DNA of 64,000 nt from contig JAYUTB010000008.1 of NCBI GenBank assembly GCA_043756005.1, forward strand, positions 2,316 to 66,315, in the 5' to 3' direction. Of the stretch, positions 4,150-49,775 are shown one piece after another. Below the pieces are notes generated by a model. The model did no database searches. It was given only the letters and a program-made list of their open reading frames with translations, and was not told the DNA's origin. Position 1 is the stretch's first letter, and each line of letters opens with the position of its first letter. The stretch is from Spiroplasmataceae bacterium (GTDB lineage Bacteria > Bacillota_I > Bacilli_A > Mycoplasmatales > JAYUTB01). A program made the translations under genes and the position numbers.

Positions 4150-4477
4150 AATTTAAAAACAATACTAAGTTGTTGTAATAAATAATTTAATCATCTATTT
4201 AAAAATCATCGGCTTCTTTTGAAATTAAACAATGAAACACGCTTTTACAAATGTTTTCATCACATTTGCGACGCCGTTTTAATTCAACTGCATTCATATC
4301 ATCACCCTACCTTTACTTTATATATTACGTTGTTTTGATATGTTATATCAACAAACAACTAATATTATTTAAACTGTTTTTTATAAATTTCCTAAAAATT
4401 TATAAAAAACATCATCATCAGGAAAGTAAAGTGGTGAACAACCTCAATAAGCCACATTTTGTATTTTTAAATTTAAC

Positions 4478-18057: not shown

Positions 18058-19131
18058 ATGATTTATAATAAAAAAACATTCTTATTAAGAAAATCTGCAT
18101 TATTGTTTGTTTTAATGCCGGTAGTAGCGATTATTACTACAGCTATTGATGAAAAAATAGATGGAACATTGATTAAAGATATAAAAGAAGAAGAAATGAA
18201 GAAATGAACAAATGCAAAAATTAAAGCATTTACGTCTGAACAGATTCGATGATTAACACCGGAACAAGTTGGATGATTGAAGAAAAAACAATTTTCAAAT
18301 TTAATAGCAAAAAAAACATTTACTGATAATGAAGTTAAAGATTTATCGCCATTTGAAATATTTATTTTATCTAAAACACAAATTGGATGATTTAAGGAAG
18401 CACAAATTGGATGATTTACGAAAGAACAAGTTGGATGATTAACAAAAAAACACTTTTCAACGTTTAATAAAAAAGAATTTAAAACTTTGTCGCCTTTTGA
18501 AATATCTATTTTATCTGAAGAACAAATTGGAGGATTTACAAAAGAACAAATTAGAGAATTGACTAAAGAACAAATTGGATGATTAACACCGGAACAAGTT
18601 AAATGATTGAAGAACAAACAATTTTCAAATTTAATAGAAAAAAAACCATTTACTAATAATGAAGTTAAAGATTTATCGCCATTTGAAATATTTATTTTAT
18701 CTAAAACACAAATTGAATGGTTTAAGGAAAAACAAATTGAATGGTTTAAAAAAGATCAAATTGGATGATTAACGTCTGAACAGATTTGATGATTAACGCC
18801 GGAACAAGTTGGATGATTGAAGAAAAAACAATTTCCAAATTTAATTGAAAACACGTCATTTAATATTAAAAATTTATCACTGTTTGAAATATTTATTTTA
18901 TCTGAAGAACAAATTGGAGGATTTACTGATGTACAAGTTAAATGATTAACATCTGAACAATTAAAAATGTTTAATTTTAAATTAAATCATAACAGTAAAT
19001 GAGATCAAACAACATGAATTGTTATGTATACATTATTATCATTATCTGCAGCGACTATTGCTGGAATTATAATCTTAATGAAATGAGAAAAAATCAAAGC
19101 AAGTTGTACAAAAAGCAAACTAAGTGATTAA
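18058..19131 (+). CDS. repeat-rich membrane-anchored surface protein (xEQ[IV]xW[LF]T octad repeats)
   Basis: AAGGAAAAA lies upstream of ATG 18058. The product has an N-terminal TM/signal helix, about 20 short repeats arranged in 3 larger super-repeats, and a C-terminal TM helix. The frame is open only with TGA=Trp (at least 15 in-frame TGA). Confidence 0.8.
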
Positions 19132-19214
19132 AAATAATTAATTCTTTATTAATTAAATAAAGTTTTAAAAAAAATTGTTAATATAAAAAATTACAAATTG
19201 ATAAAATACATTAT

Positions 19215-19924
19215 ATGTAATGATTATTGCTATTGATTATTCCCGTAATTAGTATTTTAATAACATATATTAAAAATAAAAAACCAACAGCTAATATAAA
19301 AATTGAGACTTTAACTGAGAAAGTAATAGGACAATTACAAAAACAACAAATTGAATGATTGAGAACATATCAAATTAAATGATTACAAGAAAAGCAAGTT
19401 AAAGGATTTAGTAAAGAACAAATGGGATAATTTACGAAAGATCAAGTTGGTGAATTTACCGAAAAACAAATTAAAGGATTAACCTATGAACAAATAATAG
19501 AATTTACTAAAGCTGGTTTTTTATTATTAAAAGAAAAATTTACCGATTTCATTAATAAAACAACATTTACTAATGATGAAGTTAAAAAATGATCACCGTT
19601 TGAAATTACTATTTTATCTGAAGCACAAATTGGATGATTAACCCGAGGCCAAATTCAATTATTAACCCCAGCACAAATTAAGATATTAACTAACAACCAA
19701 ATTAAACAAATGCAAACAAAATTTACCGATTTAATTAATAAAACATCATTTACTGATGCTGAAATTAGAAAATGATCACCATTGAAATTACTATGTTAAC
19801 ATCAACGCAAATTAAAGGATTAACTAACAACCAAATGAGATGATTTACTGAAGAATAAAGTAAAGCATTAACACTACCACAAATTAAGGCATTTACTAAA
19901 ATTACTTGCATGTATGATTTATAG
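19215..19924 (+). pseudogene. decayed paralogue of the 18058-19131 repeat protein
   Basis: Same repeat types (QIKWL, SPFEITILSEAQIGWLT). The start reads ATG-TAA. There are in-frame TAA codons at 19428-19430 and 19856-19858 and a 1-nt deletion near 19781 (CCATTGAAATT versus CCGTTTGAAATT). Confidence 0.7.
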
Positions 19925-19965
19925 AGCTTTTATTACCAACAATAATCATCGTTATGAAATAACAA

Positions 19966-21696
19966 CTACGTTGTTAACATTGATCTTTTTTTATCAAGAT
20001 TAATAATATTAACAAAACTAACATCATAATTAATTAATCAAGCTAAAATACTTTGATGAGGTGATTTATTAAAATTAGCAATCACTAATATTTTCATAGC
20101 TTTTAATTTAGTTAATATTTTAGCAAGGGTAATTCTTTTAAAGGCATTAACTAATAAATCAGCTAACACATCGACGTCTAACATTACCATATCAAGGTTT
20201 TTTATGATACATAAAAAACTAAAGAACTTCTCAATTAAATCATTATTTAATAACAATGCTGATTGACAAGCTAATGATTTAATTGAGCTTAGTAAATGAT
20301 TAAAATTAGCTAATGAACCAGTTTTTAATAACGCACTATTAATTAATAACGCAACGTTTAATTGATCATGTTTAAAAAATAAACTAGCCATTTGGTTGTT
20401 AATAAAATCGGTAACTTCAAGTATATTCGTTATAAAAAACCGATTATGATGATCTAAAAATAAGGGCAATAAAACTAATTGTTCCTTTGAAAATAGATCG
20501 TTAACTTTGAAAAGATGTTTTAAAAAAATTAGATAATTTTTTTTTCAATCATCATCTTTTTGAATAATATAATTTAAAAATTGCTTAACTAATTGTTTAT
20601 CAAACACTTTATTCATGACATTGATGACATGATTAATATTGTTAAGCAAAATGCAAAACATTTTAATATTTAATAAATTAGTAATTGCAAAAATATTATT
20701 TATCACAAAATCAAACTGATTGATGAGTGAGGTTTTTTCATTAAAAAAATTTTTAATGGTTTGGAAATTGATGATATTTTGATGATTAATGGTTGAATTA
20801 TCGAAAACATTAAACAGGCGATTAGTATTATTGAGTAAACGATGATGTTGTGCTAATAAATATTCATATTGAGCTAAAAAACTATTAACATCATGGTGGC
20901 GCGTAACTCAACACGCTTTAAAAATGACATTATTTTTAACATCAATACCTTCTTCAAATAATAATTTTTTTATAAAATGATTGATTTGTAAATTAATAAA
21001 ATATAATTTAACTTGATTTTGACAAATGATTGTGAAATGATTGGTAGTTTTGTTTCAAAAAATTTTATTTTTTTTAAAAAAAAATAAAATTTTTTGATTA
21101 AACTGATCAATTTGTGCGGGTGTTAAAAAAGTATTAATAACATGATTAATATTAAATTGATAAACAATGATTAAAAAATGTTTAAAAAAGGTACGATGGA
21201 ATGTGTTAATAAAATGAAAAATATCACTATTATCATTGATATGAGTAAGCTTTAACATTGAATGATTAATTAATAGTTGATTATGAATATTTCAGTAAGC
21301 CGATATTTTACCAATCACAATATTTTCTTTAGGTAATAGTTTTTGAAATGTAACATTATAATATACATCAGAAGTCGAAAACTTAATAATTGCATGAGTT
21401 TGATCAATCATTTGTTTGGTTAATCAACTAGTAGTAATTTGTTTGAATTTTTCACGTGCATCAATATCTAATAAATCATTAAAAGCAAATCATGGTAATT
21501 CATTAGTATTAAGTTCAAAAAATGAATCATAAAAATAAAATTTTTTATATTTTAAATCAATACTAAAACATGACGATTCGAATGATAAATGATGAGTGAC
21601 ATGTTGTTTGTTACTGTTGCAGACATAAAAACATACTAATCCCGCACTTAATAAAAGCAACAATACTACAATGATATTAATAATTAATATTCACAT
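19966..21696 (-). CDS. hypothetical membrane-anchored protein (576 aa)
   Basis: Track ORFs 20038-20469 and 21055-21258 plus connecting segments share one frame with TGA=Trp. N-terminal hydrophobic helix MWILIINIIVVLLLLLSAGLV. The ATG lies 15 nt downstream of the cls stop, so it is probably co-transcribed. No motif recognised. Confidence 0.55.
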
Positions 21697-21710: not shown

Positions 21711-23249
21711 TTATAAAAGTGCCTCAAACAATAGCAATAACTTTACCATAACTTTATGTGGTAATTTTAAAGTAAAATGCTTTGCTTGCACAATATAAGC
21801 TAATGAAAAATTTTGCATAAAAATATTTGCTAGCGTTTGATTAACCATTAAACCAAATGTCATCATCGACGTTTGATGATCATGAAAAAAACTTCGATAA
21901 TCCATGTTGGAAGTGGTTACTAACGAAAAATCATCATCAAATAAAATAGTTTTAGCATGATTAAAGACATGACTTGATTCATATATTTTAACACCAGCTA
22001 ATAATAAATCATCATAATAAGTGCGTGACAAGTCTAATAAAAGTATTTTATCAGTTACGTTAGGCATTAAAATTCGAACATCTACACCTGATATAGCAGC
22101 ATTTTTTAAAGCAATAACAATATCATTTGGTACAATTAAATAAGGGGTAGAAATTCAAATTCTTTGTTGCGTAGTATTAATAAATTTTAATAATAAATCT
22201 TTATAAATAATTTCAGTAATGTGGGGGCCGGTACCGATCACTTGATTAAAATTAATTGTTGTTAAATCTAAATTAGCTGATAATAGATTATTTTTTAATA
22301 ATATTGGTAAAGGTAAATGTTGTTTAGTTAATTCATATCAATCTTTTAAAAATATTAAGGCTAATGAGGTGACGGCACCACCTGTAATGCGTACTTGCAT
22401 ATCTTGTCAACAACCATATTTAGCCGATAAATTAATATAATTATCACCAATATTATACCCACCAGTATATCCAATAACGCCATCAATAATCACATCTTTA
22501 CGATGACACCGATAATTAGTTTTGTAACTAAAAAATGGTCAAGTAACATAATTGTAAAAACAAATTTCAATACCAATATTTTTCATGTTGCGTAAATTTT
22601 TATTAAACAAACCAAATCATGAACCAAAATGATCAAGGATTAAATAAATTTTAACGCCTTCACGATATTTTCTAATTAATAACGCTTCAAATGCTTTAAA
22701 ATAATAACCGTCATGAATAATAAAATAATTTAAATAAATAAATTTTTGAGCATTTGCAATGTCTTCAAACAATGCAAAAAACTTATCAATCCCATTATCA
22801 ATTAATTTAAATGTTAAATTTTGATAAAAAGGAAATTTTGTATAATTAGTCACAAAATTAATTAATAAGCTTTGCCTAGTTGATAAATCATGATTGTTAA
22901 GTAATCATTGCGTATCAGTTCATTGTTCATGATCAAATCACAATTTTTCTGCTAATAACACTTGGTCATATGTTTTACGACCTTGATATTTTTTATTAAA
23001 AATAATAAATCAAAACAGGCCAAGCATTGAAAAAACATTAATGATTAAAAATCAAGTTATTTTAAAACATGAATCACGTTTTAAATAAAAAATATATCAG
23101 GTACAACCAAAAATTAAGCAATAATTAACTAAAAAATAAATTCATAGATAACGAAGGGGAATAAAATAAAAAATACAAAAATAAAATCCACACGTTAATG
23201 CTAAAAATAAAAAAATGGTAAAAAATACAAAAAATAATTTTTGTTTAAT
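21711..23249 (-). CDS. cls: cardiolipin synthase (phospholipase D family)
   Basis: Two HKD motifs (HRKDVIIDG... and HAKTILFDDDFSLVTTSNMDYRS) and N-terminal TM helices. The pieces are joined by TGA. No in-frame ATG precedes the TM helices; the likely start is ATT (comp. 23247-23249), 8 nt after GAGGAAG. Confidence 0.85.
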
Positions 23250-23297
23250 AGTTTAATCTTCCTCTTGATAAGCTTTTTAAAAAAATATCAATTAATA

Positions 23298-23390
23298 TGG
23301 TGGAGTAAGGGGGATTTGAACCCACGCGTCATTTGCACAACCTACCTCATTAGCAGCGAGGCCTCTTCAACCGAACTTGAGTATTACTCC
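23298..23390 (-). tRNA. tRNA-Ser (anticodon GCU)
   Basis: The reverse strand GGAGTAATACTCAAG...CCTCG-CTGCTAA-TGAGG...GGGTTCAAATCCCCCTTACTCCACCA gives a cloverleaf with a long variable arm, anticodon loop CU-GCU-AA and an encoded CCA. Confidence 0.92.
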
Positions 23391-23665
23391 AATCATTACT
23401 AACGCACTAAAAAATTATAAAACAATCTTAGTTTGTTAAAATAATTATATATACATTATAAAAATAATAACAAACGACATGCACATAGAACACAATATTC
23501 AATTGTAATGTTTTAAAAACGAGTAATTCAAATTAAAAACATAAAAGAAAATTATTAAGATTTGTCTCTTTAACAAATGTTTCACTAAAGTGGGTATATT
23601 CACATGTTAGTGAATTCAAACGATATTGTTCAATTGTTTTTTATTTATCAAAAAATCATAAAAAT

Positions 23666-23697
23666 TTGACTTTATATATATATCATTTAAGTAAGGT
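23666..23697 (+). promoter_or_regulatory. promoter-like TTGACT + (TA)5 tract + SD upstream of the 23698 gene
   Basis: TTGACT at 23666-23671, (TA)5 at 23673-23682, then TAAGG before ATG 23698. This is a short version of the cassette seen at 35876, 47434 and 27493. Confidence 0.5.
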
Positions 23698-25343
23698 ATG
23701 TTTATGAACAAATTACTTAAATTATTCCCGATTGCAATAATTGCGCCTATGTTGGCGTTGACTTTTACTTCAGCAGTTGTTACACCTAAAGCTGAGGGTC
23801 ATTTTAAATATATTAACAACTCCATTACATTTAATGGTAAAACTTATTCAACCGATAATTTCAACTCACACAATCAAAGAATTTTAAAAATCAGTAGTGT
23901 GGAAATTATTATTGATAAACCGACAAAAGATTTTGTTTTTTACACAATTAATGGTGTTGATTATTTATATGTTGAAAAACAAAACACACTAATTAATTTA
24001 TCAACCAGTACAAAAGATTCTTACGTAATATATGGTGGAAAACTAAAAGTTTTTAATATCTTGGGGGGGTAGATTATATATTATATTGATATGGATCGCA
24101 CTGAATTTTTTCAACCATCGATCACCTAAAATATTGATACCCTACTGATGAAGTAAATTCTGTTGAAATTCTTGATGGCACTCACATTCAATTGAAATTG
24201 AATAATTCAAAATATGTTTGTTTAAATTTAAACTTACACAATAAAGTTATATCAAGTGATAATTCATTTTGAAAAGTATTTATTGATAATGAAACTGTAT
24301 TTTTAGGATATATATTTTATAATGCTGATTTAAATGAGCATCCAATTTTTAAAACTCCAATATATATGTCTGTATGAGAATACTCAAATATATACATTAA
24401 AAAAGACTTATCTGGGGGCTTGTTTGATTTCACAACAAGACTTACTTCAAAATCTATACAAAAATGCTCGTCTTATAAACCAATAACAATTGACGGCATT
24501 AAATTATTCATGGTAACTGTTGATAATAAACAAGAATTTTATGATGTTGATTTAAATAAAAAAGATGAATACAGTATTAAAATTCTTCACAATAACAATT
24601 ACATTGAACGAACTGTTGCTGATGTTAAAACGTTATTCAAGTTTGATGATGGCGCAAAAATTACATCAATCCTAGATTACAAAAAACTTGAAGAACGAAC
24701 CGTTGATACCGTTAAATTATTAATGGTAACTGATGCAAGTGATGGTGTAAAATTTTATAAGGATAGCGATCAAGCTTTAAATGGTAACTACACAACAATC
24801 AAACCGCAAGACACAAAGTACATTAAACGAACCGTTGATGGTGTGAAAACTTTATTCAAACTTGATGGCACATCAATTACAGATTACAAAGAACTTGAAC
24901 CACGAACGATTGATACCGTTAAATTATTGATGATAACTGATGCAAGTGACAATGTAGCATTTTATAACGATAACGATCAAGTTTTAAATAAAAACTACAA
25001 GTCAAGCACTCTGCATAACACAACTTACATTGAACAAACCGTTGGTGATGTTAAAACGTTATTCAAATTTGATGATGGCGCAAAAATTACAACAATCTCA
25101 AATTACGAAAGCATTAAACCAATAAAAAGCTTATTTAAAAAGAAATACTTAGAAGTAACTAACATTGAAAAAACAGTTGATTGATATAGTAGTATTAGTG
25201 AAGGCAAAAAAGATGATTTTAAAAAAACCTCTGGTATTATAAAATATCAGACTCCAATTGTAATTGGAGCTTCGGTTGGTTCAGTAAGTGTTGGTGCTTT
25301 AATTACTGCATTAATTTTAATTATTAAAAAACGTAAAAAATAA
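23698..25343 (+). CDS. variable surface protein, split by a frameshift at a G7 tract (apparent OFF state)
   Basis: The signal-peptide ORF 23698-24072 stops just after G7. The frame starting at 24069 is open (TGA=Trp) to TAA 25341-25343 and ends in a TM helix plus KKRKK. One extra G fuses the two parts (about 548 aa). Confidence 0.75.
24063..24069 (+). repeat. poly-G (G7) homopolymer at the frameshift point
   Basis: The sequence CTTGGGGGGGTAG can be read directly. Confidence 0.95.
24601..25110 (+). repeat. coding tandem repeats of about 205-220 nt (YIExTVxDVKTLFKxDG...TVDTVKLLM[VI]TDASD)
   Basis: About 2.4 units are visible in both protein and DNA (24601, 24823 and 25027 all begin TACATT[GA]AAC[GA]AAC). 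Confidence 0.85.
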
Positions 25344-25661: not shown

Positions 25662-25780
25662 TACTAGCAATTGATAGATAAGTTGAGTTTATTATGGTTC
25701 AGCCGTTCCTTGATCAATATTTGATGTTGTTATGATAAAAATATCTTCTTTTACATAAGTTGTTTTTACTTTTTATATAT

Positions 25781-26353
25781 AAAAAGGAAATTTTGTATAA
25801 TTAGTCACAAAATTAATTAATAAGCGTTACCTAGTTGATAAATCAGGATTGTTAAGTAATCATTGCGTATCAGTTCATTGTTCATGATCAAATCACAATT
25901 TTTCTGCTAATAACACTTGATCATATGTTTGACGGCCTTTATAGTTTTTATTAAAAATAATAAATCAAGTTATTTTAAAACATGAATCATGTTTTAAATA
26001 AAAAATATATCAGGTACAACCAAAAATTAAACAATAATTAACTAAAAAATAAATTCATAGATAACGAAGGGGAATAAAATAAAAAAATGGTAAAAAATAC
26101 AAAAAATAATTTTTGTTTAATAGTTTAATCTTCCTCTTGATAAGTTTTTTTAAAAAAATATCAACTAATATTGTTGAATAAGGGGATTTGAGCCCATCCG
26201 TCATTTGCACAACCTACCTCATTAGCAGCGAGGCCTCTTCAATCGAACTTAAGTATTACTCAAATCATTACTAACGTACTAAAAAATTATAAATAATCTT
26301 AGTTTGTTAAAATAATTATATATACATTATAAAAATAATAACAAATGACATTC
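25781..26353. repeat. degenerate second copy of 22826-23483 (cls 5' end + tRNA-Ser + flank)
   Basis: The two regions align by eye along their whole length, with scattered substitutions and two deletions of about 40 bp. The copies are direct repeats bracketing 23484-25780. Confidence 0.9.
26171..26262 (-). pseudogene. tRNA-Ser(GCU) relic inside the duplicated segment
   Basis: The anticodon arm is identical to the 23298-23390 copy. The 3' CCA is changed to ACA, the acceptor stem is altered, and the T-loop reads GCTCAAAT instead of GTTCAAAT. Confidence 0.65.
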
Positions 26354-26516
26354 AATAAAGACAACAACAATAACACCAGATAAAGCTAATTTTTTTAAAA
26401 AATTAATTACTAATAATTCTTTGTTATGCATAAAATGAATAACAATTTAATTAATCTTTGAAATTATAAATAATTAATAAAACTCAAATCGCTTTTATAA
26501 CAATTTGTTTGTATAT

Positions 26517-27423
26517 TTTATTTTTGACGTTTTTTAATAATAAAAACTAATGCTGTAATTAAAGCAATAATACCTAGTGAAACAGGTAATCCAATTGTTA
26601 AAAGTTGGTTATTTGTATCAGTTTTTGACGTTTCTTGAGCTTTTGGTATTGGTTGAGTGTCTGAAGTTTTTGGTTTTTCTTGAACTTTTGGTATTACTTT
26701 AGTTTCTGAAATTTTTGGTATTGGTTGAGTTTCTGAAGTTTTTGGTGTTGCTGGAGTGTCTGAAGTTTTTGGTATTGGTTGAGTTTCTTGAGCTTTTGGT
26801 ATTGGTTGAGTGTCTGAAGTTTTTGGGGTTGTGGGTTTGTTTATTGTTACATTTTTAACAATTGTATTTTGAAATTTTAATTCAATTTGATCATTTGGTA
26901 ATTCGTTTATTGAATCAATATCATTTGCAATTTCATAACTGATTGAATGGTCTATTTTTGAAAATAAAATTTTTTGATCTTTAATATATGTTATTCAATC
27001 ACCTTCAGTTAAAGAAAAAACTTTTGGAAGATTTTTAATCTTATCATCTGCTTTTCCGGTTGTTAAATTTATAAAATAATTAGAAGTGACTTTGGAACCA
27101 AAACTATCTATAAATAAATAATCATTTTTATCAATCGTCAAAAAGAACATTTTGGTTTTGTAGTCTTTTACATCATCAGGAATATAATAAAAATCATCTT
27201 TATTTAAAATAATTGCATAATATAGATTACCTCATCCCCCTCATTTTCTTTTCTCTATTTTATATGTTTTGTCATTATATTCAATTTCTTCTATAATTCT
27301 TTTATTGTCACTAAATGTTTCAAAATCAGTGAATGATTTTTGCTTAATATCTGCTGAAAATAAAGTAATAACTAAAACTGGTACAACAATAATTGGTAAT
27401 ATATTTTTCAATAATTTTTTCAT
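26517..27423 (-). CDS. surface protein with Pro/Thr/Lys-rich repeats; C-terminal membrane anchor out of frame
   Basis: ATG at 27423, signal peptide MKKLLKNILPIIVVPVLVITLFSA. The frame checked codon by codon ends at TAA 26533-26535. The anchor SLGIIALITALVFIIKKRQK* (to 26517) lies in the adjacent frame after the A4/T4 run at 26579-26582. Confidence 0.7.
26590..26830 (-). repeat. imperfect 27-30-nt coding repeats (PIPK[TA][SQ][DE]TQ)
   Basis: GGTATTGGTTGAGT[GT]TCTGAAGTTTTTGG-type units are repeated about 7 times. Confidence 0.8.
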
Positions 27424-27493
<70 letters not shown>

Positions 27494-27584
27494 ATTTGAT
27501 TGATTTAGTTTGATATTTTAGAGGTTGTTATGTTATTTTTAAAATCAAAAAACTAACTAATGTTTAATATGTTAAAATTTATGC

Positions 27585-28778
27585 ATGAGTTATAAAAAAT
27601 TATTTACTAGCGAATCAGTTTCAGAAGGTCATCCTGATAAAATATGTGATCAAATTTCGGACGCAGTATTGGATGCTTGTTTAACACAAGATTCACATAG
27701 TCGAGTATCATGTAATTTGTTTATTACCGCCGATCAAATTTTGATCGGCGGTGAAATAACTACCAATGCCAAAATTAATTTTAATGAAATTATTCAAACA
27801 GTTTTTGATGACATTGGTTATAAGATTACTTTAAATAAAACTCCATCAATCAAAAACGAACGACATAATTTTCAAACCAACATTAGTGTTCATCAACAAT
27901 CGCCAGAAATTCATAAAATGGTTAATAACCTTGATCATCATATGAAATATGGCGATCAAGGGATTGTATTTGGTTATGCAGTTAATGAAACTGATAATTA
28001 CTTACCTATAGCATATACATTAGCCAATGAACTTTTAAAAAGAGCTACTTATTTAAGAAAAAACGATCAATTTCATAAAGCTTTACCTGATATGAAATCA
28101 CAAGTAACAGTTCGATATACTGATAATCCATCTTGTCCGATTCAAGTTGAAAAAGTAGTATTAAGCATTAATCATTATCAACACGATTCTAATGAAACGC
28201 GTGATCAATTTCGTCATTTTATTAATACGGAAATTATTGATCATGTATTGCGTCAATTTAATTTAAACATTGATTGTGAAAAGTATATTAATAATAATGG
28301 TGATTTTGTATTAGGAGGGCCATGAGCTGATAGTGGATTAAGTAATAAAAAAATTGTAGTCGATACTTATGGAGGAGGCGGTAGATGTGGAGGGGGGGGT
28401 TTATCAGGTAAAGATCCAACAAAGCCAGATCGCAGTGGTAATTATTTAGCTAGATATATTGCTAAAAATATTGTCGCTACAGGATTAATTAATAAACTTG
28501 AAATTCAATTAAGTTTTTTAATTGGATCTGAAAGTCCAATTGCAGTAGCAGCTGATACTTTTCATCATGCTAAAGTTACGGAAGCAATGATTTTACAAAT
28601 CATTGCGCAGCATTTTGATTTAACTTTGCAAGGTTTTATTAATGATTTAAAACTTTTAAGACCCATTTATCGACAAACAAGTGTGGGGGGTCATTTTAGT
28701 AACGCTACTTTTCCTTGAGAAGCAACTGATAAAACAAGCGCCATTAAAAAAACACTGTTAACATTAATCGGTTCATAA
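27585..28778 (+). CDS. metK: S-adenosylmethionine synthase
   Basis: FTSESVSEGHPDKICDQISDAVLD at the N-terminus, and GGG...SGKDPTKPDRSG further in. The frame continues past TGA 28323 to TAA 28776-28778. It contains an in-frame G8 run at 28392-28399. Confidence 0.95.
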
Positions 28779-29366: not shown

Positions 29367-29669
29367 TTAAAAATTATTTTTTCATTGCGTTAGCACATTA
29401 ATAAATAATATTACAAACGTTTCCGTTAAAAAGGCAATCATGATGCCTAAACAAAATCATTTTAATGATTTGATTGTTTCTTGTCTTTCTAAGCCTTGCG
29501 TGGCATATATTTTAATACCAATAATAATGCCACGAATTACCGCAAATAAACTAGTAATCACTAATAAAGCAGAAATAATACCATTACAAATGTTTTTAAT
29601 AGTGATTAATAATTCATTATTCGCTAATGTCATATTCATCATGGTCGTCATCATCAGTTCATGCATCAC
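29367..29669 (-). CDS. small two-TM protein, last gene of the T4SS-like cluster (possibly pilin/VirB2-like)
   Basis: Track ORF 29457-29669 extends through TGA to TAA 29367. About 100 aa with two hydrophobic helices. It overlaps the 3' end of the upstream gene. Confidence 0.5.
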
Positions 29670-32001
29670 TTTCTAATTGATCAGCATTAATAATCAATGC
29701 TCTTTTATTTCTGTTACGGATATAAAAACAAATGATAATTAAACCCACAAAAAATATCATCGATCCGGCTACTACGCCAAACAAGATCATCAGATTAGTT
29801 CAGGTGATTTGTTCATCAAGTTGAGCTTGATATTTGTTATAAGCATTAATGATTATTTCCTCATATTTTTTTTGTAAATTTAAATAATTGTCACGGGCTG
29901 CTTTAGATATTGGTCGGGTTCAATTATGGAGTTTTAAGATAATTGCTTCTTTAGTTTGCCAATCTTTAAAGTGGGCGTTTTTAAAACCATCATCGATTTG
30001 TGCTGTTAAAAAAAGCTTGGCTTTAATAATCGTTTTTTCTAAGATGCCTTTGGTTCAATGATTTCAAAAATTACTGAAAGTAATAAAAGAAGATATGGTT
30101 GTGTCGTTGATATCTATTACATCACGCACAATGTTTTGATGTTCATAACCGTTGACATTTAGTAATTGATGTTTTATAAAAGCGGCGGTTAATTGGGGAT
30201 GATAGTTAGTAATATTTGTTAATCAACTGTGCATTTGATGATGATGTTGATTTTTAATAATATTAAGTTGATGAGTTAACATTTGATGATCAAGTTGATT
30301 GATGGTGGCATCATCAATGTTAAAAAACTTGACTCATGTTAATTGACGAGGTGTAATATTGTTGGGTACTTGATCACTACCAAGTTGTAAATAAAAATCT
30401 TGGTGTTGGTGGTTGATTTTAACAACGGTTAATTTTAATAAAGTAGTATTTAAACCTGGTTGATTATATAAATTTTTATTGACAACCTGATCACTGAGTG
30501 GTAATGGTTTTCAAATATCTTTTTCTTTGATCGATAATTGGGTTGATTTTATAAAATGAGGAAATTTATTTTGCAGCTGGATTTGTTGATGGGGGGTGTA
30601 ATAAATTTTGACCGTTTGCTGATCAATGGTTCTTCATACATAATCTTTAATTAAATTATTTTTGGCTCAAAAAAAATTTTGAGCTAAGGCTTTATTAAAT
30701 AATGTAAAATTGATAATTTTAGTATTACCATATTGATCGTTAACAACGATTTTATAATCATTAGGTTGCGTAAAGGTAAACATGATTTGATTATTTTTTA
30801 AGGTAATTTGATATGGTAGTTTGGGTGATGAATTTTTAATCACAATTTTGTTAGCAATTGTGATAGCTGGTTCACCATTAATGATGATGTTTTTAAGAGT
30901 ATTATCAAGTAAAATATGTCAATTAATTTGATCGTCAAAGTAATATGCAGTTTTTTTAACATTTTGTTGATCAGTAAAATAAGTAATTAACTGATCGGTA
31001 GTGTTGTGATAATGATATAAATATTGATAAATATTATTGTGTAAGGTAATTTTTGTTTTATCAAAGCTGTTAATATAAAATGGTTTTTGAAGAGGCGGAA
31101 TTAATTGATTATTGATGGTTACAAAGAAATAATAATGTTTATCAACGTGTTGACTGTTGATTTGATCAACTAACATGGTCGTTTGAAATTGATTTTGTTT
31201 GGTGAAAGTGAGTTTTTGTTTTTTTCATGGTGATTTATTACCAGCACGAAAATTTAATTCAAAAAATAAATGTTTGAGAACTTGATTAGTAAAATGTTTG
31301 CTATGATGAGTTAGTTTAAAGGTTAGTTTAAATGGTTTATTTTTGAAAATTGGTTGAGGTTGCTGGTTAAGACTAGTAACATTTGTTTGATGAACATTAT
31401 CATCAACAGCAGTAATATTTAGTTGCAGATCATTGAAATCGACCAATAAAGCATAATCTTTTTTTAACAACGATGTGTTATCGCTCGGATATCAAGTGAC
31501 TTCTTTGCCATCTTCTGATAAAGGTTGATCTTTAGGATATCGATATCAATACCACACACCACCACTGGGTAGTCATAAATTAACTCGTAAATTACTTAAA
31601 TACATATTTTTTTTATCAAATCTGATGTCGGGGGCGTGAAAATTAGCTCAGGATACTTTTTGAGCAGGCTTGTCTAAATCAGTAATTGATTTACGATATC
31701 AAGCTTTACAATGTTGTGTTCTTTCGCCACGCAATCATCCATAAGCGACATGACATTTATTAATGGATCAATCAACTCAATCATCTTTACGAAAATAAAG
31801 ATAATTATCATTAATACGCACTTCTTGTCAATGAGCTGAATCTTTAAGCAGTTGTTTTTTCTTAAAAGCACCACTCACTAAATACCAAGCGTTATTTTCT
31901 CAGATGACAGCAACATCAGTATGAATTAATAATGATTGGTTTTTTATAGGTGGGGAGAGATGTTGCGATGATAAAAAAAAATTATTATTAATAATCACCA
32001 A
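29617..32001 (-). CDS. large Trp-rich protein with C-terminal TM anchor and acidic tail (about 794 aa)
   Basis: A single frame traced codon by codon from TTG/GVG near 31996-32001 to TAA 29617, with many TGA. It includes track ORFs 30919-31176 and 31225-31470. C-terminus: MILFGVVAGSMIFFVGLIIICFYIRNRNKR...DDDDHDEYDISE. No family recognised. Confidence 0.6.
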
Positions 32002-32029
32002 AGTTGTTTAATAAATTTAATAGTACGAA

Positions 32030-33091
32030 TTATTTTTTAAACACCCCTCTTTTTAATTTTTTAATGATGCTACTCATTTGTTGTGTTTCGTAACTTAAAT
32101 TTCCTTTTATTTTGAAAACTTGATCATAAACATGTTGCGCTCTTACTAAAAAAATGCCGGAGGCAATCAATAATAATAATTTTAAAATGACATTTGCAAA
32201 AAAATCATCTTTGTTAAAAATCATGAAATGATTGATGGTATATAATTTACTAATGACTGATATAAAAATAAATAAATTCAGATTTAAACCAAAAATTAAT
32301 AAGGTTTTTGACACAAGGGTGGTTTGTCAATTTTTAAAATGCTTACCACCATCATAAGCAATTCACGCAATTGCCAGTGGTCCTAATAAAAACAACAGTA
32401 ATATTTCAAACATTCTTTGAATTAAACAAAGACACATTGATGTTAATGTTCAAATAATAACACCTGCTCCAATCATCACTATGATGTTGTGAAATTGATG
32501 TTTTTGATCATAACTTCATTGGTAGTTTAAAGTAATATTAGTGATCTCAGCTTCGGTCATTAATTGATGAGGTGTAAAACCGGATTGATAAATTTTATCA
32601 GCAATAATATTAGTATCTAAACTGTTATGATGTTGAAAAATAGCCCCCATTAACAAAAAAATATAATTATTAATGGTGATAAACAACATTGGAAAGGTAA
32701 TGATAAAAATAATAGCCACAAAAACATGTTTAATAATATTGTTTATTTTTCATGATTCTTGATTAGTAAATAAAAGATTAATTACTTTTAATATTGCCGC
32801 TAACATAATGACACCACCTGCTAGGATGGAAATAATCATATAAAAGAGATTGTGCTCGTTCATGTTTAATTCATGTAACATTCATTTAAAAAATTGTTCG
32901 CCTAATAAATAGTTAAAAACTATACCAATTTTTTGCACGATTTTTAATAGAAACATGGTAATTTGAAAAATCAAATTATAAAACCATGTATTTCATCATG
33001 CTGCATTTGGTCCAATATTTAATGAAGTACATATGATCAGCAACACGATTATCAAAAACATTTTTAAACAATAACGACCGCGTCGTGACAT
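32030..33091 (-). CDS. polytopic membrane protein (VirB6/TrbL-like position)
   Basis: ATG at 33091. Track ORFs 32030-32314 and 32516-32719 share a frame joined by TGA. At least 6 hydrophobic helices. It lies directly downstream of the VirB4-like gene. Confidence 0.6.
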
Positions 33092-33101
33092 ATTATTAAA
33101 T

Positions 33102-35597
33102 TTAAAACAGATCTTTTTCATATTGATCAACTGTAATTTTTACTTTATTCATGATATTGTCTGAAGCAATTAATAAACACTCACCACGGTGTAATTGATT
33201 AATTTGTGAAATCACCAGTTGGTTTTTAATTGATTTTTTTAAAAGAGTATCAAAATTATTAACATCACCATCATTTAAATTAAAAACCAACATGGTTTGC
33301 GCGTTGTTTAAAATACTTTCGGTTTTAAAACTATGGCTAATATTGACGAAATCTTTAATGTTTTGACTAATAATAATTGTGCCACCTTGATATTTTCTAA
33401 TGCGTTTTGTTAAATTAAAAATAAAATTAAGGGGTTGATAGTGATAATTATCGGCAAATTGATTGATTAAAACATGAGCTTCATCAATCACAATGTATAT
33501 ATAATGAGATTGTTGATTGAGTTGATTAGCTAAGCGATTTTTTAAAACTTCTTTTTCAACATAATAAAAAATTAAAAACAACAATGCTTTACTAAATGAA
33601 TTGTTATAACTAGTTTGTAAAGAACTAATATCAAATAATGTAATACTTTTTTGTAAATTTAAATTAGTATGACAATTAAAATAACTGGTTTTGGTAAGTA
33701 AGGGTTTGAATAATTCAGCTAATTCAAGATTAATTTTGGTTGCTTCACAAACTAAGCAATTATATAAATCTTGCAAAACTGGAAAATCAGCGCTGGTTAA
33801 ATAAGCAAGCTCACTAAAATTATCAATTTCTTTATCTTTATACATTTGATATAAAAAAGTCGTTAATACATCAAGTTTGGTTTTATTTAAAAAAGGAAAT
33901 AAAATATTAAATCAGATTTGTAAAAAAGCAATATGATTGTCCAACTTTAAATGATTGTCAAAATATATTTCAAAAGGATTAATATAAATATTTTTATTTT
34001 GAAAATCAATAATATCACCTTTTAATGAAGTGACAATGTTGCGATATTCTTGTTCTGGATCAATAATGATGATTTTGTTTTGATTTAAAACAGCTTGTTT
34101 AATAATTTTTTTAGCCGCAATTGTTTTTCCTGAACCACTTTTACCAAGAATAACGATATTATGATTAATCCGTTGTTGATTTAAAAGATCAGGATTAAAG
34201 ATAATATGACTTTGATTTTGTTGATTAATACCTAATATTAAACCTTGTTTATCTTGATATTTTTCATATGCAAAAGGTCAAAACGCAAATCAAGTAGTTG
34301 ATAATATTTCTTGATGATGATAATTATAAAATAATGGGCGAGGTTGATTTCATTGCAGGCATTGTTTTAAAGCAGTGGATTGTTCAAAAAATAATTCGTT
34401 AATCATGAAGTTTTGTAGTTGTAATTGATTAGTAATTTGAGTAAATGTTTGTTTTAATTGTTTTTTGTTATCGGCTTTGATAACAAAAAACAAATTAGTT
34501 GCATAAATTTCTTGATTAGTGGTAGCAACTTCATTAATAATTTTTTCAAAATTTGTTTGCAAAGAATGATGTTGATTAATCAATTTGTCGGTAGTGTCAG
34601 TTGCTAAATTATTGATGGCTTTGGTAACTTGTTTTTGAAAATTAAGTTTATTAATGGTGTGTCATGACATGTAATAGTTTAAATTAGCTAATGATTCATA
34701 TTTTGATAATCATTGTGGCGAAATATGAACTGGGTAATCTTCAATAGTAAAAAATTTATAATAAGTAGTATTAATTTTTAAGCAATTAAATTTACTAGTA
34801 ATTTTAACGTTCAAATCGGTAACGTTATAAAAATTTAATAATATTTTGATAGTTTCAGGAGCGGCCAATATTTTTGGAAACAACGGCAAATCATGATTAT
34901 TTAACAAAGCTTTATGTTCTTCAAAAGCAATTTTTAAATTTTTTTGATCAGGACTAGTTAAAATAATACTTATTAAAGGTTCAGTTAAAGTGGTTGTTAA
35001 GTTTTGGTATTTTGCTAATTCCAACATTAACAAATGTTTATAATCTTGATTGGTAACTATTAATTGTTGAATGTAATCAATTTGATCTTGTCAATTTAAT
35101 GGTTGGGTTAATTTAACAATATTAATGTTAATGTTATGTTTTTCGATTAATTTGAATGAATTAGTGATGATTTGAATTAATTGGTTTTTTTGCTGATCGT
35201 TAAAATTATGGAGATTATAATGATTGATAGTTAAAAACATTACGTAGTTGTGATTGATTTTAATAGTTTCATGGTTATTAAGTGGTTCTTGAAAAATTGA
35301 TCAGATTTTATTAAAAGTTAGGGTTTTTATTTTTTTAATTAAAAATAAAAACATGAGAATTAATAATTTATAACCTTTGATGTTGAAGGTGGGAATATTA
35401 ATTACCAACATGAAACATAAACTAAATCAAAAACACATGATCATGATTTTGATTCAAAATAACACATGAAATTTAAAAATTAAAAAAGCTAGTAAAATAA
35501 AGATAAAAATTAAACAACCATCGGGCAATGTAAAATTTTTAAAAATCTTTAATTTAATTTTGTTAATTTTTTTACATATTAAATATTCATGATTCAT
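33102..35597 (-). CDS. VirB4/TraE-like type IV secretion ATPase with N-terminal TM (VirB3-like) segment
   Basis: Four track ORFs in one frame (831 aa). Walker A ILGKSGSGKT, IIIDPEQEY and Walker B YIVIDEAHVL are typical of the VirB4/TrsE/TraE family. Two to three N-terminal TM helices. Confidence 0.85.
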
Positions 35598-35875
35598 ATA
35601 ACAACCACATATTATATATCTCTTAAAATGCAAACTTTTCCTTAAATATTTTTTTTATTTAAAAAAAATATTTATATAACGCAATGAAAATAATCTATGT
35701 TGGGAGATAATTATAGGTAAACAAAAACTAATTAATGTTTATTTTGATAAAAAACAATGCAAGATGTGTAATAAAAATTATTTATTGTTGGCCTTTTTAA
35801 TATGTTGATAAATAGATTGTTTAACGATGGAATGGTAATTATTGGTGATGTTTTAATCAAAATCAACATAAAAAC

Positions 35876-35935
35876 TTGACTTTATATATATATATATATA
35901 AAATAAAAATAACTTATGTAAAGGAAGTTATTTTT
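35876..35935 (+). promoter_or_regulatory. promoter/leader cassette with (TA)9 and SD-overlapping hairpin
   Basis: TTGACT 35876-35881, (TA)9 35883-35900 (17-nt spacer to TAAAAT), AAATAAAAA, hairpin AATAACTT/AAGTTATT 35908-35932 overlapping AAGGAAG, ATG 35936. Confidence 0.7.
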
Positions 35936-36178
35936 ATGAAAAAATTATTGAAATTTACAAACCTAAATAAAGTAGTTTTATTTAGTTTGGTGACAATTCC
36001 GGTAGCTGCTATTTTAATGACGGCAAATGCTTGTCAAGGACCAACAGGACCAGCAGGATCTAAAGGTGAAACAGGAGCAGTAGGACCTAAAGGTGAAACA
36101 GGAGCAGTAGGATCTAAAGGTGAAACAGGAGCAGTAGGACCTAAAGGTGAAACAGGAGCAGTAGGACCTAAAGCGTAA
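35936..36178 (+). CDS. small collagen-like (Gly-X-Y)n putative lipoprotein
   Basis: [33 protein letters not shown] (signal peptide ending in Cys) is followed by 15 uninterrupted G-X-Y triplets ([18 protein letters not shown]...). SD AAGGAAG lies upstream and a strong terminator follows. Confidence 0.75.
36065..36172 (+). repeat. 27-nt tandem repeat x4 (GETGAVG[PS]K)
   Basis: GGTGAAACAGGAGCAGTAGGA[CT]CTAAA starts at 36065, 36092, 36119 and 36146. Confidence 0.95.
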
Positions 36179-36210
36179 AGTAAGTTAAATTTAACTAATA
36201 ACTAAACCTA

Positions 36211-36248
36211 ATGTTAGAGTTAAAATTTATAAATTTTAACTCTAACAT
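36211..36248. terminator. 18-bp perfect stem hairpin
   Basis: ATGTTAGAGTTAAAATTT-AT-AAATTTTAACTCTAACAT, located 33 nt after the collagen-like gene stop. Confidence 0.8.
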
Positions 36249-36660
36249 GAAATTAAGCTGTTAATTAATATTATTTAATTTTAGAAATCTTTTTTAAAAT
36301 TTTAAAAAAGATTTCAATTTTATTTGTGTTTTAATAATCTTTGTATATTTATATTATCACTGATTTTTTTAATATCATAAATCAATATTATATAACAATC
36401 GCCGTTATTTGAAATCTATAACTATTATAAAATAACAATCTTTTTTTGTATATTTATAATTTTTTTTAAGGACATCTTTTGTAATAATTTTGCCAATTAT
36501 ATGTCCACCTTTTAATGATTAATAACCTGTGCTAGTGATTTTAATTTGTATTCTTAAAAATACCCGTCTACAATAACATCATATTTAATGTTTGTTACAT
36601 CTACTCTACAATATTAGTTTTATAATAAAAAAAATTGATATCAACATTTGCTTCTAACAT

Positions 36661-36899: not shown

Positions 36900-36914
36900 C
36901 AAAAATTAAATCAC

Positions 36915-47820: not shown

Positions 47821-48356
47821 TTATTTTTTACGTTTTTTGATGATTAAAATTAATGCAGTAATTAAAGCGATAACTAATATTAAGCCGCCCCCGCAATAAT
47901 TGGTATCTTATATTTTGTTCAAATTAATTTTATTTTATCAGCTTTGTTTGTTGTTAATTTTAAATCAGTTGTATATAAAGTTTTAATATTATCAACTGTT
48001 TTTTCAATGTAATTTGTGTTGTTGTGATTTACGATTGTATATATTTTACTTTCAATACCATTAACATCATAAATTTTATCAGCTGTTATGAACAATTTAT
48101 CATTATCAATTTTAATTAAATTATTTTTAATGTATTTTTTAGTTTTATCTTTGTTAGTTACTTCAATGGCTTGGTTTGTTATTGTTCACCCATCTTTTAT
48201 ATACATTAGTGTTTTGTTGTCTATAGTTGCTAAAATTATTCGCAAATCAAGCAGAGTTAATGTTGAAATACTCGTGTAATTTTCTATTAGATAAAACAAG
48301 TTCTTTGCATAGTATAAAGTTTTAGTTTTATCTTTATTAGTTACTTCTAAACAATG
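47821..48356 (-). pseudogene. C-terminal remainder of the 48357-49775 surface-protein gene (cut off by TAG and by a frameshift)
   Basis: The frame stays open after TAG 48357-48359 down to TAA 47880 and keeps the same repeat type (YIEKTVDNIKTLYTTD). The TM anchor LILVIALITALILIIKKRKK* (to 47821) is in the adjacent frame beyond the C5/G5 run at 47888-47892. Confidence 0.6.
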
Positions 48357-49775
48357 CTAAAACAATTTTGTTTGTTGAGTAATTTCGCCAATGTAGCTTT
48401 TTGTTTTGACTTTTAAGTCTGCTGTATATAAAGTTTTATTTTCATCCTTGTCAGTTGTTTCTAAGTAATTGATTGTTAAATCCGATTCCAAGATAGAATT
48501 TTGTTGTTTAAATTCAAATATGCGTTTTTTAATTGAAGTGTAATTTGTAATTGAATTTGTACCATCCATTGTATATAAAGTTTTAACATTATCAATTGTT
48601 TTTTCAATGTAATCTGTGTTGGGTGGTTTGGTTGTTTTGTATAATGTGCTTTGTTTTAAATCAACATTATACAATTTTATTTCTGTATCAAAAGTTACTA
48701 TTAATAATTTGTCAGTATCAAGTGTTTTTTCTTCGATGGTTTTGTAGTTTTCTATTTTTTTAGTTGAATCACTTAAAAGATATAAATTATTAGTTTTATT
48801 ATCGTTATTTTTTGATATGTATTTGATGTCAAAATATTTTTCAAGTTGATAAATGTTTTTTAACACTAAATCAGTATCAAAAAATTTATTTTCTTCACCA
48901 ATCGTTGTCATAAATAATTTTGTGTTATCAACAGTTATTTTTTTAATATCGTCAGTGTAGTTTTCAATTTTGTTTTTTAAGTCTGTTGTATATAAAGTTT
49001 TCGTACCATCTACGTTAGTTGATTCTAAGTAGTCTTTACCATCAACTTTTTTTTGTGAAATTGTTTTGTATTCGTTTGTTCAATTGTCGAAATTATACAA
49101 TAATATTGTTTTTCCAGAAATTGTTATTTCAATATATTTAATATTATTTATTTGTATAAATTTTTTAGATGCGTCTACTTTTTTAAAAGTAGTCATGTTG
49201 TAAACACATTCAGCATCATTAATATTTAATATTAAATAATTGTTTGGAAAAATTGTGAATTGTTTAGTAATGTTACTAATTTTCATGATTTTTTTTGTTG
49301 GATCGGTGAAAAGATATAAATCAAATGTGGGAGATGTATGAAATTGATATTTGATATAATATATATTAAAGTAATCTATTAATACATAATCTGGTGTTGA
49401 AATCTCTAATGTATGGAATAAAAAATTTTTATTTTTAACAGTTGTTGTTTGAATGTCACCTGAATATTGGGTTTTTTGATTTGCATTTTTTGTATATAAA
49501 GTTTTTGTCTTGTCAAGGTTATCTTTGATTATGTAATCTATACCAAAATGTTTTTTGTTGGATAGGTTTTTGTTGATGATGGTGGTTTGTTGGTTGGTAA
49601 AAATTCAATTGTCGGAGGTTCCAGTAATGTTATATAATATGCCGTCTATAGTAACAGATTTTATTGAAGGCTGAGATGTATTTTGTTGAACATCAGCACT
49701 CATTAATAAAGCTGATACTAATATCATTGGAGTGGTAATTAATAATGGCGATAGTTTGTAAAATATTTTTTTCAT
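48357..49775 (-). CDS. surface protein of the KTLY-repeat family (truncated form, 472 aa)
   Basis: ATG at 49775, signal peptide MKKIFYKLSPLLITTPMILVSALLMSA. Track ORFs 49080-49286 and 48357-48911 share a frame joined by TGA. It has repeats Y[IL]ExT.D..KTLYT like the 23698 gene. Confidence 0.7.

What the first reader, a model, noticed from the sequence alone, without database searches (positions are those of the whole stretch)
24063..24069. G7 tract splits a 548-aa surface-protein gene; one extra G restores it
ORF 23698-24072 (signal peptide plus N-terminal domain) hits TAG immediately after GGGGGGG. The overlapping frame from 24069 is open (TGA=Trp) to 25343. It encodes the matching remainder: three YIExTVxDVKTLF repeats, then a TM helix plus KKRKK. 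G8 (or G5) would give a single protein.

The G8 run inside the essential metK gene (28392-28399) is in frame. That argues against indiscriminate homopolymer sequencing error and for a contingency (phase-variable) tract. Guanine runs are very rare in this AT-rich sequence.
Basis: partly seen in the sequence, partly recalled or inferred. Interest (0 to 1): 0.7.

Follow-up and report, generated by a model that had tools for sequence, protein, structure and literature searches.

The report
Poly-G frameshift splits surface-protein gene
A run of seven G's puts a surface-protein gene of a mycoplasma-like bacterium out of frame; one more G would restore it, so it is either a reversible on/off switch of a well-known kind or a gene that has just begun to decay, and the data at hand cannot tell which.

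Summary
G7 (24063-24069) is followed directly by TAG. The frame entered by adding one G stays open to 25343. The restored protein aligns end to end with an intact paralogue from another contig (E 7e-29) and with two more paralogues across the junction, so this was one gene. Paralogue leaders put the start at 23704, giving 546 aa rather than 548.

The G7 is not an assembler artefact. An independent Logan contig, seen in two sequencing runs, carries the same G7. About 400 A/T runs of 6 or more and the G6-G8 runs in housekeeping genes do not disrupt ORFs.

The gene belongs to a tiny lineage-restricted family: 9 hits in 1.84 billion representatives, with no Pfam or NCBIfam match. Members are predicted to be all-beta, and the tract lies where the modelled intact paralogue has a beta-turn.

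Phase variation remains unproven:
- No tract-length variation was seen.
- G7 is short for a poly-G contingency tract.
- Several paralogues are clearly dead. Two broke at G runs, and two carry in-frame stops.

In favour, this gene has a single lesion, and neighbouring family genes carry (TA)n promoter repeats of very different length.

Verdict: a real slipped-strand frameshift. It is plausibly a known-type switch currently OFF (about 0.5) and otherwise an incipient pseudogene (about 0.35). Interest is modest.

The parts
23666..23683 (+). Remnant of the family's promoter/leader cassette: TTGACT followed by (TA)5. The TAAAAT box and leader hairpin present in the paralogues are missing here.
   Evidence: Alignment of four upstream regions.
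23704..24072 (+). Upstream ORF of 122 aa: hydrophobic N-terminal signal/anchor plus the first two thirds of the N-terminal beta domain. It ends at TAG.
   Evidence: The exact product is present in the NCBI and Logan gene calls.
24063..24069 (+). G7 tract, read as (TT)G GGG GGG. This is the site of the frameshift. G8 or G5 restores a single ORF.
24069..25343 (+). Downstream frame of 424 codons with no further lesion: rest of the N-domain, beta repeats, TM helix and KKRKK tail.
24600..25064 (+). Three YI(E/K)xTVxxVKTLF repeat units within roughly 207-nt tandem repeats.
   Evidence: (D3, D6).
25257..25340 (+). C-terminal transmembrane helix plus KKRKK stop-transfer tail, shared with the paralogues.
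   Evidence: The modelled paralogue has a helix at 585-602.
22824..23483 (.). Left copy of a 660-bp direct duplication: the 5' end of the cardiolipin-synthase-like gene plus a functional tRNA-Ser(GCT) at 23298-23390.
25779..26354 (.). Right copy of the duplication (91-98% identical), carrying a degenerate tRNA-Ser copy at 26173-26263. Together with the left copy it brackets the gene.
26518..27423 (-). Intact paralogue of 301 aa. Its N-domain aligns across the junction. It carries a sense-strand G5 at 27236-27240 (W-G-G-W) and a (TA)13 promoter cassette at 27458-27500.
47821..49775 (-). Second family gene, broken twice: an in-frame TAG at 48357-59 and a frameshift at a sense-strand G5 (47888-92). 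G6 would restore the TM-KKRKK tail.

Best explanation
This is one gene for a surface-anchored protein of about 546 aa. The architecture is an N-terminal signal/anchor, an all-beta ectodomain made of blade-like repeats, and a C-terminal TM helix with a KKRKK tail. In the sequenced population the gene is out of frame because a G tract at codons 120-122 has seven G's.

Shown: the frameshift is real and sits exactly in the tract. It is the only lesion in the gene. It falls where the modelled intact paralogue has a beta-hairpin turn, so the in-frame lengths (G5, G8, G11) would change only the number of glycines there.

Inferred: the lesion arose by slipped-strand mispairing during replication and can revert the same way. 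On that reading the gene behaves as a mutational ON/OFF switch, that is, translational phase variation of the kind known from mycoplasma vaa and p78. G7 and G6 would be OFF states, giving a 122-aa or about 166-aa truncated N-fragment with no TM tail. G8 and G5 would be ON. It is part of a small family of contingency-style surface-protein genes, some of which have gone on to decay permanently.
For: - Single gene: the restored protein aligns 1-546 to the intact paralogue P0011 (1-603) in one HSP, E 7e-29. P0012 (E 1e-21) and the in-window paralogue P0002 (E 1e-9) also cross the junction.
- Single lesion: the 424 downstream codons are intact, although 149 of them are one substitution from a stop. 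None of the 21 A/T runs of 5 or more in the gene disrupts the frame.
- Real tract length: Logan contig L083 (two runs) is 100% identical over 1011 bp, including the G7.
- Rare sequence: GGG makes up 10% of Gly codons, and G7 is expected 0.27 times per window.
- Structural context: in the AF2 model of P0011 (pLDDT 76) the equivalent residues, EG 126-127, form the turn between strands 116-125 and 128-135.
- Family context, G runs: two further family genes are out of frame at G runs. One is at 47888-92 (G5). The other is P0013, whose C-terminus matches the frame reached by a 1-nt deletion (equivalently a 2-nt insertion) in the G5 run of the intact paralogue 26518-27423.
- Family context, promoters: four surface-protein genes share a TTGACT-(TA)n-TAAAAT cassette, with n = 5, 9 or 13 and spacers of 9, 17 or 27 nt.
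- Precedent: 7-8 nt homopolymers suffice in Mollicutes. M. hominis vaa switches between A8 and A7 at 1e-3 to 1e-4, and M. fermentans p78 between A7 and A6 (PMC2831843).
- Own knowledge: Mollicutes lack MutS/MutL mismatch repair.
Against: - No tract-length polymorphism was seen. G8, G6 and G5 products are absent from the 15-billion-protein collection. The Logan contig runs through the tract without a break. This is weak evidence, because bubble popping hides minor alleles and the runs may be the same data as the NCBI assembly.
- G7 is short. C. jejuni contingency tracts have a mode of G9-10, and strain NCTC11168 has no G7 locus at all (PMC3401435). The window shows a monotonic tail (many G5, five G6/C6, one G7, one G8) rather than a class of long tracts.
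- The family is full of dead copies. One has a nonsense codon plus a frameshift. Another has a frameshift away from any G run plus in-frame stops.
- The paralogues fit the G5 length best. G7 may therefore be two steps from the ancestral ON state.
- The promoter cassette is truncated compared with the paralogues. That could be a second, regulatory lesion.
Confidence: 0.5

Rival explanations
1. Plain incipient pseudogene. The G run is only a mutational hot spot. The frameshift is a one-way loss in a redundant, decaying paralogue family, with no selected switching.
For: - Several family members are broken by more than one lesion. Gene 47821-49775 has an in-frame TAG plus a G5 frameshift.
- P0009/L085 has a frameshift not at a G run plus in-frame stops and no TM tail.
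- P0013, P0010 and P0012 look truncated.
- The same G7 appears in every assembly available.
- The tract is short compared with established poly-G switches.
- The promoter cassette is partly deleted.
Against: - There is only one lesion in 546 codons, despite many stop-prone codons and A/T runs, so any loss is very recent.
- The lesion lies in the most revertible site of the gene.
- Without mismatch repair (own knowledge of Mollicutes), reversion at a G7 should be frequent whether or not it is selected.
Confidence: 0.35
2. Sequencing or assembly error: the true tract is G8 or G5 and the gene is intact.
For: Homopolymers are classic indel-error sites. The Logan runs may be the same reads as the NCBI assembly, so the two assemblies are independent only at the level of the assembler.
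Against: - An independent de Bruijn assembly in two runs gives the same G7.
- Logan contigs are 100% identical to the window over 1.0, 4.1 and 8.4 kb.
- The G8 in metK, the other G6/C6 runs, and about 400 A/T runs of 6 or more do not disrupt ORFs.
- Coding density is 87%, and frameshifts are confined to this surface-protein family.
Confidence: 0.05
3. Recoding: the full-length protein is made from the G7 template. This would occur by -1 ribosomal slippage on G_GGG_GGG next to the TAG stop, or by RNA-polymerase slippage on the G run.
For: G GGG GGG is a formally perfect X XXY YYZ heptamer. A -1 shift gives exactly the G8 protein (...ILGGVDY...). The 0-frame stop directly after the site could promote pausing. 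These points are read from the sequence plus inference.
Against: - There is no stimulatory structure downstream. The MFE of 24055-24175 is no better than shuffles (z = +0.91).
- Paralogues encode this region in one frame without a G run, so the site is not a conserved recoding signal.
- Known transcriptional slippage mostly uses longer A/T runs (own knowledge).
Confidence: 0.05

Closest known systems
Mycoplasma hominis vaa and M. fermentans p78: homopolymer frameshift phase variation in Mollicute surface-protein genes (Zhang & Wise 1997; Theiss & Wise 1997, as summarised in PMC2831843)
   Same: A 7-8 nt mononucleotide tract lies in the 5' part of the coding region of a Mollicute surface protein. 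A change of one nucleotude shifts the frame and truncates the product. The host lineage lacks mismatch repair.
   Different: Those tracts are poly-A, and switching was shown by colony blots and sequencing. They are lipoproteins or adhesins with no sequence relation to this protein. Here the tract is poly-G, and switching has not been observed.
Campylobacter jejuni poly-G/C contingency genes (PMC3401435)
   Same: Poly-G tracts inside ORFs of surface-structure genes, in an AT-rich genome (about 30% GC) where G runs are otherwise scarce.
   Different: Those tracts have a mode of G9-10 with measured rates of 1e-4 to 1e-3, and dozens of loci form a distinct length class. Here there is one G7, and no separate class of long tracts within 64 kb.
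Vmm (M. mycoides) and Vmc (M. capricolum) surface lipoproteins switched by (TA)n in the promoter spacer (Persson 2002 via PMC2628566; Wise 2006 from my own knowledge)
   Same: Neighbouring family genes here carry TTGACT-(TA)n-TAAAAT cassettes with n = 5, 9 or 13, so the spacer is 9, 17 or 27 nt. The 5' cassette is shared across unrelated mature proteins.
   Different: The gene under study has lost the TAAAAT part of the cassette, and its visible lesion is inside the ORF. There is no protein similarity to Vmm or Vmc, and no experimental data.
M. tuberculosis glpK homopolymer frameshift (bioRxiv 10.1101/717272; PMC6667613; the 7C length is from my own knowledge)
   Same: A G/C homopolymer of seven is long enough for reversible frameshifts that are seen in natural populations.
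   Different: That case concerns a metabolic gene in a GC-rich genome, with clinical isolates showing both states.

Membership tests
SSR-mediated translational phase variation (contingency locus) | A simple repeat inside the ORF whose length changes move the gene in and out of frame | tested here: met
   G7 gives a stop at 24070. G8 or G5 gives a single ORF of 546 or 545 aa.
SSR-mediated translational phase variation (contingency locus) | The gene is otherwise intact, with no second disabling mutation | tested here: met
   The 424 downstream codons are open, and the restored protein aligns end to end with intact paralogue P0011. Caveat: the promoter cassette is truncated.
SSR-mediated translational phase variation (contingency locus) | Tract length differs within or between populations | tested here: inconclusive
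   Only G7 was seen, in the NCBI contig and in a Logan contig present in 2 runs. The third run (SRR22198334) did not yield the locus.
SSR-mediated translational phase variation (contingency locus) | The tract is long enough to be hypermutable (typically 7-8 or more for mononucleotides), in a mismatch-repair-poor background | tested here: inconclusive
   G7 equals the vaa and p78 tract lengths but is below the C. jejuni mode of 9-10. mutS/mutL status cannot be read from a 64-kb window.
SSR-mediated translational phase variation (contingency locus) | The product is surface-exposed or interacts with the host | tested here: met
   Hydrophobic N-terminus, C-terminal TM helix plus KKRKK, and an all-beta repeat ectodomain in the paralogue model. 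This rests on sequence and model only.
SSR-mediated translational phase variation (contingency locus) | Reversible ON/OFF phenotype at high frequency | not testable with these tools
   Needs colony or immunoblot assays, or deep amplicon sequencing.
Programmed -1 ribosomal frameshift | Slippery heptamer X XXY YYZ | tested here: met
   G GGG GGG at 24063-69, in the correct register.
Programmed -1 ribosomal frameshift | Downstream stimulatory RNA structure | tested here: not met
   The fold of 24055-24175 has z = +0.91 against shuffles.
Programmed -1 ribosomal frameshift | Two-frame arrangement conserved in homologues | tested here: not met
   P0011, P0012 and P0002 are single-frame through this region.
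Vmm/Vmc-type (TA)n promoter switch | (TA)n tract forming the spacer between the -35 and -10 boxes | tested here: not met
   The target keeps TTGACT-(TA)5 but lacks the TAAAAT box. The feature is met for the neighbours at 27458-27500, 35876-35905 and about 47400-47440.
Pseudogene (irreversible decay) | Two or more independent disabling mutations, or loss of essential parts | tested here: not met
   There is one lesion only in this gene. The feature is met for paralogue 47821-49775 and for P0009.

The most novel reading that the evidence does not exclude
This divergent Mollicute runs a two-tier contingency system on an orphan family of beta-repeat surface proteins. The first tier is (TA)n spacer length in a shared promoter cassette. 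The second tier is poly-G tracts, placed at different tolerant positions (beta-turns, the edge of the TM helix) in different paralogues. On this reading the G7 here, the inferred out-of-frame G run in P0013 and the G5 at 47888 are states of selected switches rather than accidents. Poly-G, rather than poly-A, would be a new flavour for Mollicutes.
Probability: 0.2. Interest if true: 0.5.

Novelty: new member of a known kind. Interest (0 to 1): 0.3.

Why it matters
If the tract does switch, it would give an uncultured, very divergent Mollicute an antigenic ON/OFF surface protein. It would also extend homopolymer phase variation in Mollicutes from poly-A to poly-G. The mechanism itself is textbook.

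The practical value is for annotation. The two ORFs (122 aa and the 383-aa public call P0001) should be joined as one frameshifted gene. The family, which has no Pfam or NCBIfam model, is a candidate host-interaction repertoire.

The more interesting lead is the set of (TA)n promoter cassettes on neighbouring genes. Together with recurrent G-run frameshifts, they suggest a contingency-gene repertoire that could be tested directly from existing reads.

Tried and rejected
1. The search for homologous proteins, run three times, returned only P0001. It also missed P0002, P0003 and P0008, which are in its own collection. Its silence is therefore not evidence that homologues or G8 alleles are absent.
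2. Both genome-contig scans failed to recover the source genome or close relatives. The family profile found nothing. The organism therefore remains unnamed, and no syntenic orthologue was obtained.
3. A metagenome-contig scan for the tract with flexible G length found nothing.
4. Looking up NCBI-only proteins (P0001, P0011, P0012, P0013) gave no DNA. The G run inferred for P0013 could therefore not be read directly.
5. The restored (edited) protein is not accepted by the structure and representative-search tools. I used the intact paralogue P0011 and a profile of window proteins instead.
6. Searching papers for the SRA run numbers found nothing.
7. The Foldseek hits to WD40-like and BT4663 propellers have good E-values but TM of 0.2 or less. 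I take them only as evidence of blade-like beta repeats, not as a fold assignment.
8. TAG as a sense codon is rejected, because TAG ends three other ORFs in the list.
9. Internal re-initiation is rejected as a functional product. The first start in the downstream frame is the TTG at 24192, which gives a protein without a signal sequence.

Full report
**Observation.** The window is 27.1% G+C and uses TGA for Trp: there are 208 TGA against 20 TGG codons in ORFs. At 24061-24072 the sequence reads TTG GGG GGG TAG, so the G run is 24063-24069 and is followed immediately by a stop. The frame beginning at 24069 is open for 424 codons to the TAA at 25341-43. It encodes three YI(E/K)xTVxxVKTLF units, a hydrophobic helix and KKRKK. 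Inserting one G or removing two gives a single ORF. TAG is a normal stop in this organism: 5 of the 49 ORFs in my list end in TAG, including this ORF and the paralogue's premature stop.

G/C runs are rare. There are 7 runs of 6 or more, against 409 A/T runs of 6 or more. GGGGGGG is expected 0.27 times in dinucleotide-preserving shuffles. Every factual element of the finding is therefore right. The one correction concerns the start codon. The ATG at 23704, not 23698, aligns with the ATG of three paralogous leader cassettes and is the start used by the public gene calls. This makes the restored protein 546 aa.

**One gene, really broken.**
- An intact paralogue inside the window (26518-27423, minus strand, 301 aa) aligns with residues 1-175 of the restored protein, straight across the junction.
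- An exhaustive HMMER search of 1.84 billion cluster representatives, using a profile of the window's family members, found only nine proteins. These are the window's own members plus six others, five on other NCBI contigs (25.6, 64.8 and 9.8 kb) and one Logan-only fragment identical to the start of the window gene 48357-49775.
- One of those, P0011 (603 aa), is full length. The restored protein aligns 1-546 to its 1-603 in a single HSP with E 7e-29. P0012 also spans the junction, E 1e-21.
- There is no Pfam or NCBIfam model for the family.
- An AlphaFold model of P0011 has mean pLDDT 76, above 90 in the repeats. It is all-beta with a C-terminal helix. Foldseek finds only local, blade-like similarity to beta-propellers, with TM of 0.2 or less.
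- The residues equivalent to the G-tract glycines (EG 126-127) form the turn between two strands of the N-terminal domain. The G7 stop therefore truncates that domain mid-sheet. In-frame tract lengths would alter only the number of glycines in that turn.

**Not an artefact of the assembler.** The organism's PNPase gene led to Logan assemblies of SRR23617200 and SRR23617201 that are 100% identical to the window. The 122-aa upstream ORF is on record in Logan. Its contig (L083, 1011 bp, seen in two runs) equals window 23549-24559 exactly, G7 included, and does not break at the tract. An 8.4-kb Logan contig is likewise identical.

Housekeeping genes that contain G6-G8 or C6 runs, and hundreds of long A/T runs, show no disruption. 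MetK is full length with its G8 encoding part of GGGG. Frameshifts are confined to this surface-protein family. The runs may be the very reads behind the NCBI assembly, so this excludes assembler error but not a systematic read error. I rate that possibility as unlikely.

**Is it a switch?** Points in favour:
- It is the only lesion in the gene. This holds although 149 of the 424 downstream codons are one substitution from a stop, and none of the 21 A/T runs of 5 or more in the gene disrupts the frame. The shift is therefore recent or repeatedly reversed.
- The tract is built from GGG codons, which make up 10% of Gly codons.
- It lies in the first quarter of the gene, at a position where the modelled paralogue has a turn (inferred to tolerate extra glycines).
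- Two other family members are out of frame at G runs. The gene at 47821-49775 needs one more G in GCGGGGGCGG to regain its TM-KKRKK tail. P0013 ends in ...WGGDEVVHIMQLF, which matches the frame reached by a 1-nt deletion (equivalently a 2-nt insertion) in the G5 run of the intact paralogue at 26518-27423.
- Tracts of 7-8 nt are sufficient for phase variation in Mollicutes: vaa switches between A8 and A7 at 1e-3 to 1e-4, and p78 between A7 and A6 (PMC2831843).
- Four surface-protein genes in the window share a promoter/leader cassette, TTGACT-(TA)n-TAAAAT. Here n = 5, 9 or 13, giving spacers of 9, 17 or 27 nt. This resembles the dinucleotide promoter switch of Vmm (PMC2628566).

Points against:
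- No other tract length was found. G8, G6 and G5 products are absent from the protein collection. This is weak evidence, because the word-indexed search demonstrably misses members of this family and because contig building hides minor alleles.
- A near-identical strain in a third run (SRR22198334, 3 differences in 4068 bp) could be recovered only up to the repeat boundary next to the gene.
- G7 is short for poly-G contingency loci. C. jejuni tracts have a mode of 9-10, and G7 loci are absent in strain NCTC11168 (PMC3401435). The window shows a monotonic tail of run lengths.
- The family is visibly decaying. The gene at 47821-49775 also has an in-frame TAG. P0009/L085 has a frameshift away from any G run plus in-frame stops.
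- The target's promoter cassette has lost the TAAAAT box.
- Paralogues fit the G5 length best, so G7 may be two steps from the last ON state.

**Recoding.** G GGG GGG is a formal -1 slippery heptamer, and a -1 shift would yield exactly the G8 protein. However, the downstream RNA folds no better than shuffles (z = +0.91), and the paralogues are single-frame here. I give this 0.05.

**Conclusion.** Shown: a genuine slipped-strand-type frameshift at a G7 tract splits one gene of a tiny, lineage-restricted family of beta-repeat surface proteins. Inferred: it is reversible by gain or loss of one G, so the gene behaves as a homopolymer ON/OFF switch of the vaa/p78 kind, currently OFF (0.5). The main rival is that it is the newest pseudogene of a decaying family (0.35). 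The two readings differ only in whether reversion occurs and is selected, and read pile-ups from the three named runs would settle that. The mechanism is well known. At best this is a new member of a known kind, with poly-G being unusual for Mollicutes.

Noticed in passing
window 23666-23683, 27458-27500 (-), 35876-35905, about 47400-47440 (-): Four surface-protein genes share a promoter/leader cassette: TTGACT-TT-(TA)n-TAAAAT-AAAAA-hairpin-ATGAAAAAATTATTG. The (TA) count is 5, 13, 9 and 5. The -35/-10 spacers are 27, 17 and 9 nt, and the target lacks the -10 box. By spacing, only the collagen-like gene at 35936 looks ON. The pattern resembles Vmm/Vmc-type promoter phase variation.
   Followed up: partly
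window 22824-23483 and 25779-26354: A 660-bp direct duplication (91-98% identical) brackets the studied gene. It covers the 5' end of the cardiolipin-synthase-like gene and tRNA-Ser(GCT). The second copy carries a degenerate tRNA (T-loop GTTCAAATC changed to GCTCAAATC) that ARAGORN calls but Rfam does not. This suggests the gene arrived or was rearranged by recombination.
   Followed up: partly
window 47821-49775 (-): A second family gene is split into three pieces by an in-frame TAG (48357-59) and a frameshift at a sense-strand G5 (47888-92). One extra G restores ...IIAGGGLILVIALITALILIIKKRKK.
   Followed up: yes
protein P0013 (other NCBI contig, 9.8 kb) compared with window 27236-27240: This 74-aa truncated paralogue has a C-terminus (WGGDEVVHIMQLF) that matches the frame reached by a 1-nt deletion (or 2-nt insertion) in the G5 run of the intact gene at 26518-27423. 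By inference its own G run is expanded and out of frame.
   Followed up: partly
window 35936-36178: A short lipoprotein-like ORF has a collagen-like repeat, (GETGAVG[PS]K)x4, after a signal peptide ending ...TANAC. The region downstream of it (36178-36915) is non-coding.
   Followed up: no
window 29617-35633 (-): A mycoplasma-type ICE module sits next to metK/ybeY. It includes an Mbov_0396-family TM protein (32030-33130, E 1e-30) and an Mbov_0397-family VirB4-like ATPase (33102-35633, E 5e-129, below the curated cut-off), plus a 794-aa membrane protein.
   Followed up: no
window 18058-19966: A 357-aa protein is built of EQ(I/V)GWLT / SPFEIFILS repeats. It is followed by about 800 bp of non-coding DNA that repeats the same units at 70-83% identity.
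   Followed up: no
window 28392-28399: The longest G run in the window (G8) sits in the essential metK gene, encoding part of YGGGGRCGGGGLSGKD.
   Followed up: partly
locus L085 (Logan SRR23617200, 3377 bp): Family member P0009 has a frameshift just upstream of its called start (between ...KVWTLPQQQYITN and KWIFSTD...) that is not at a G run. It also has in-frame stops near its end and no TM tail. It lies upstream of gpsA and is a clear pseudogene.
   Followed up: yes
window 4445-4825 (-): RNase P RNA of class B (236 bits), consistent with a Bacillota/Mollicutes origin.
   Followed up: no
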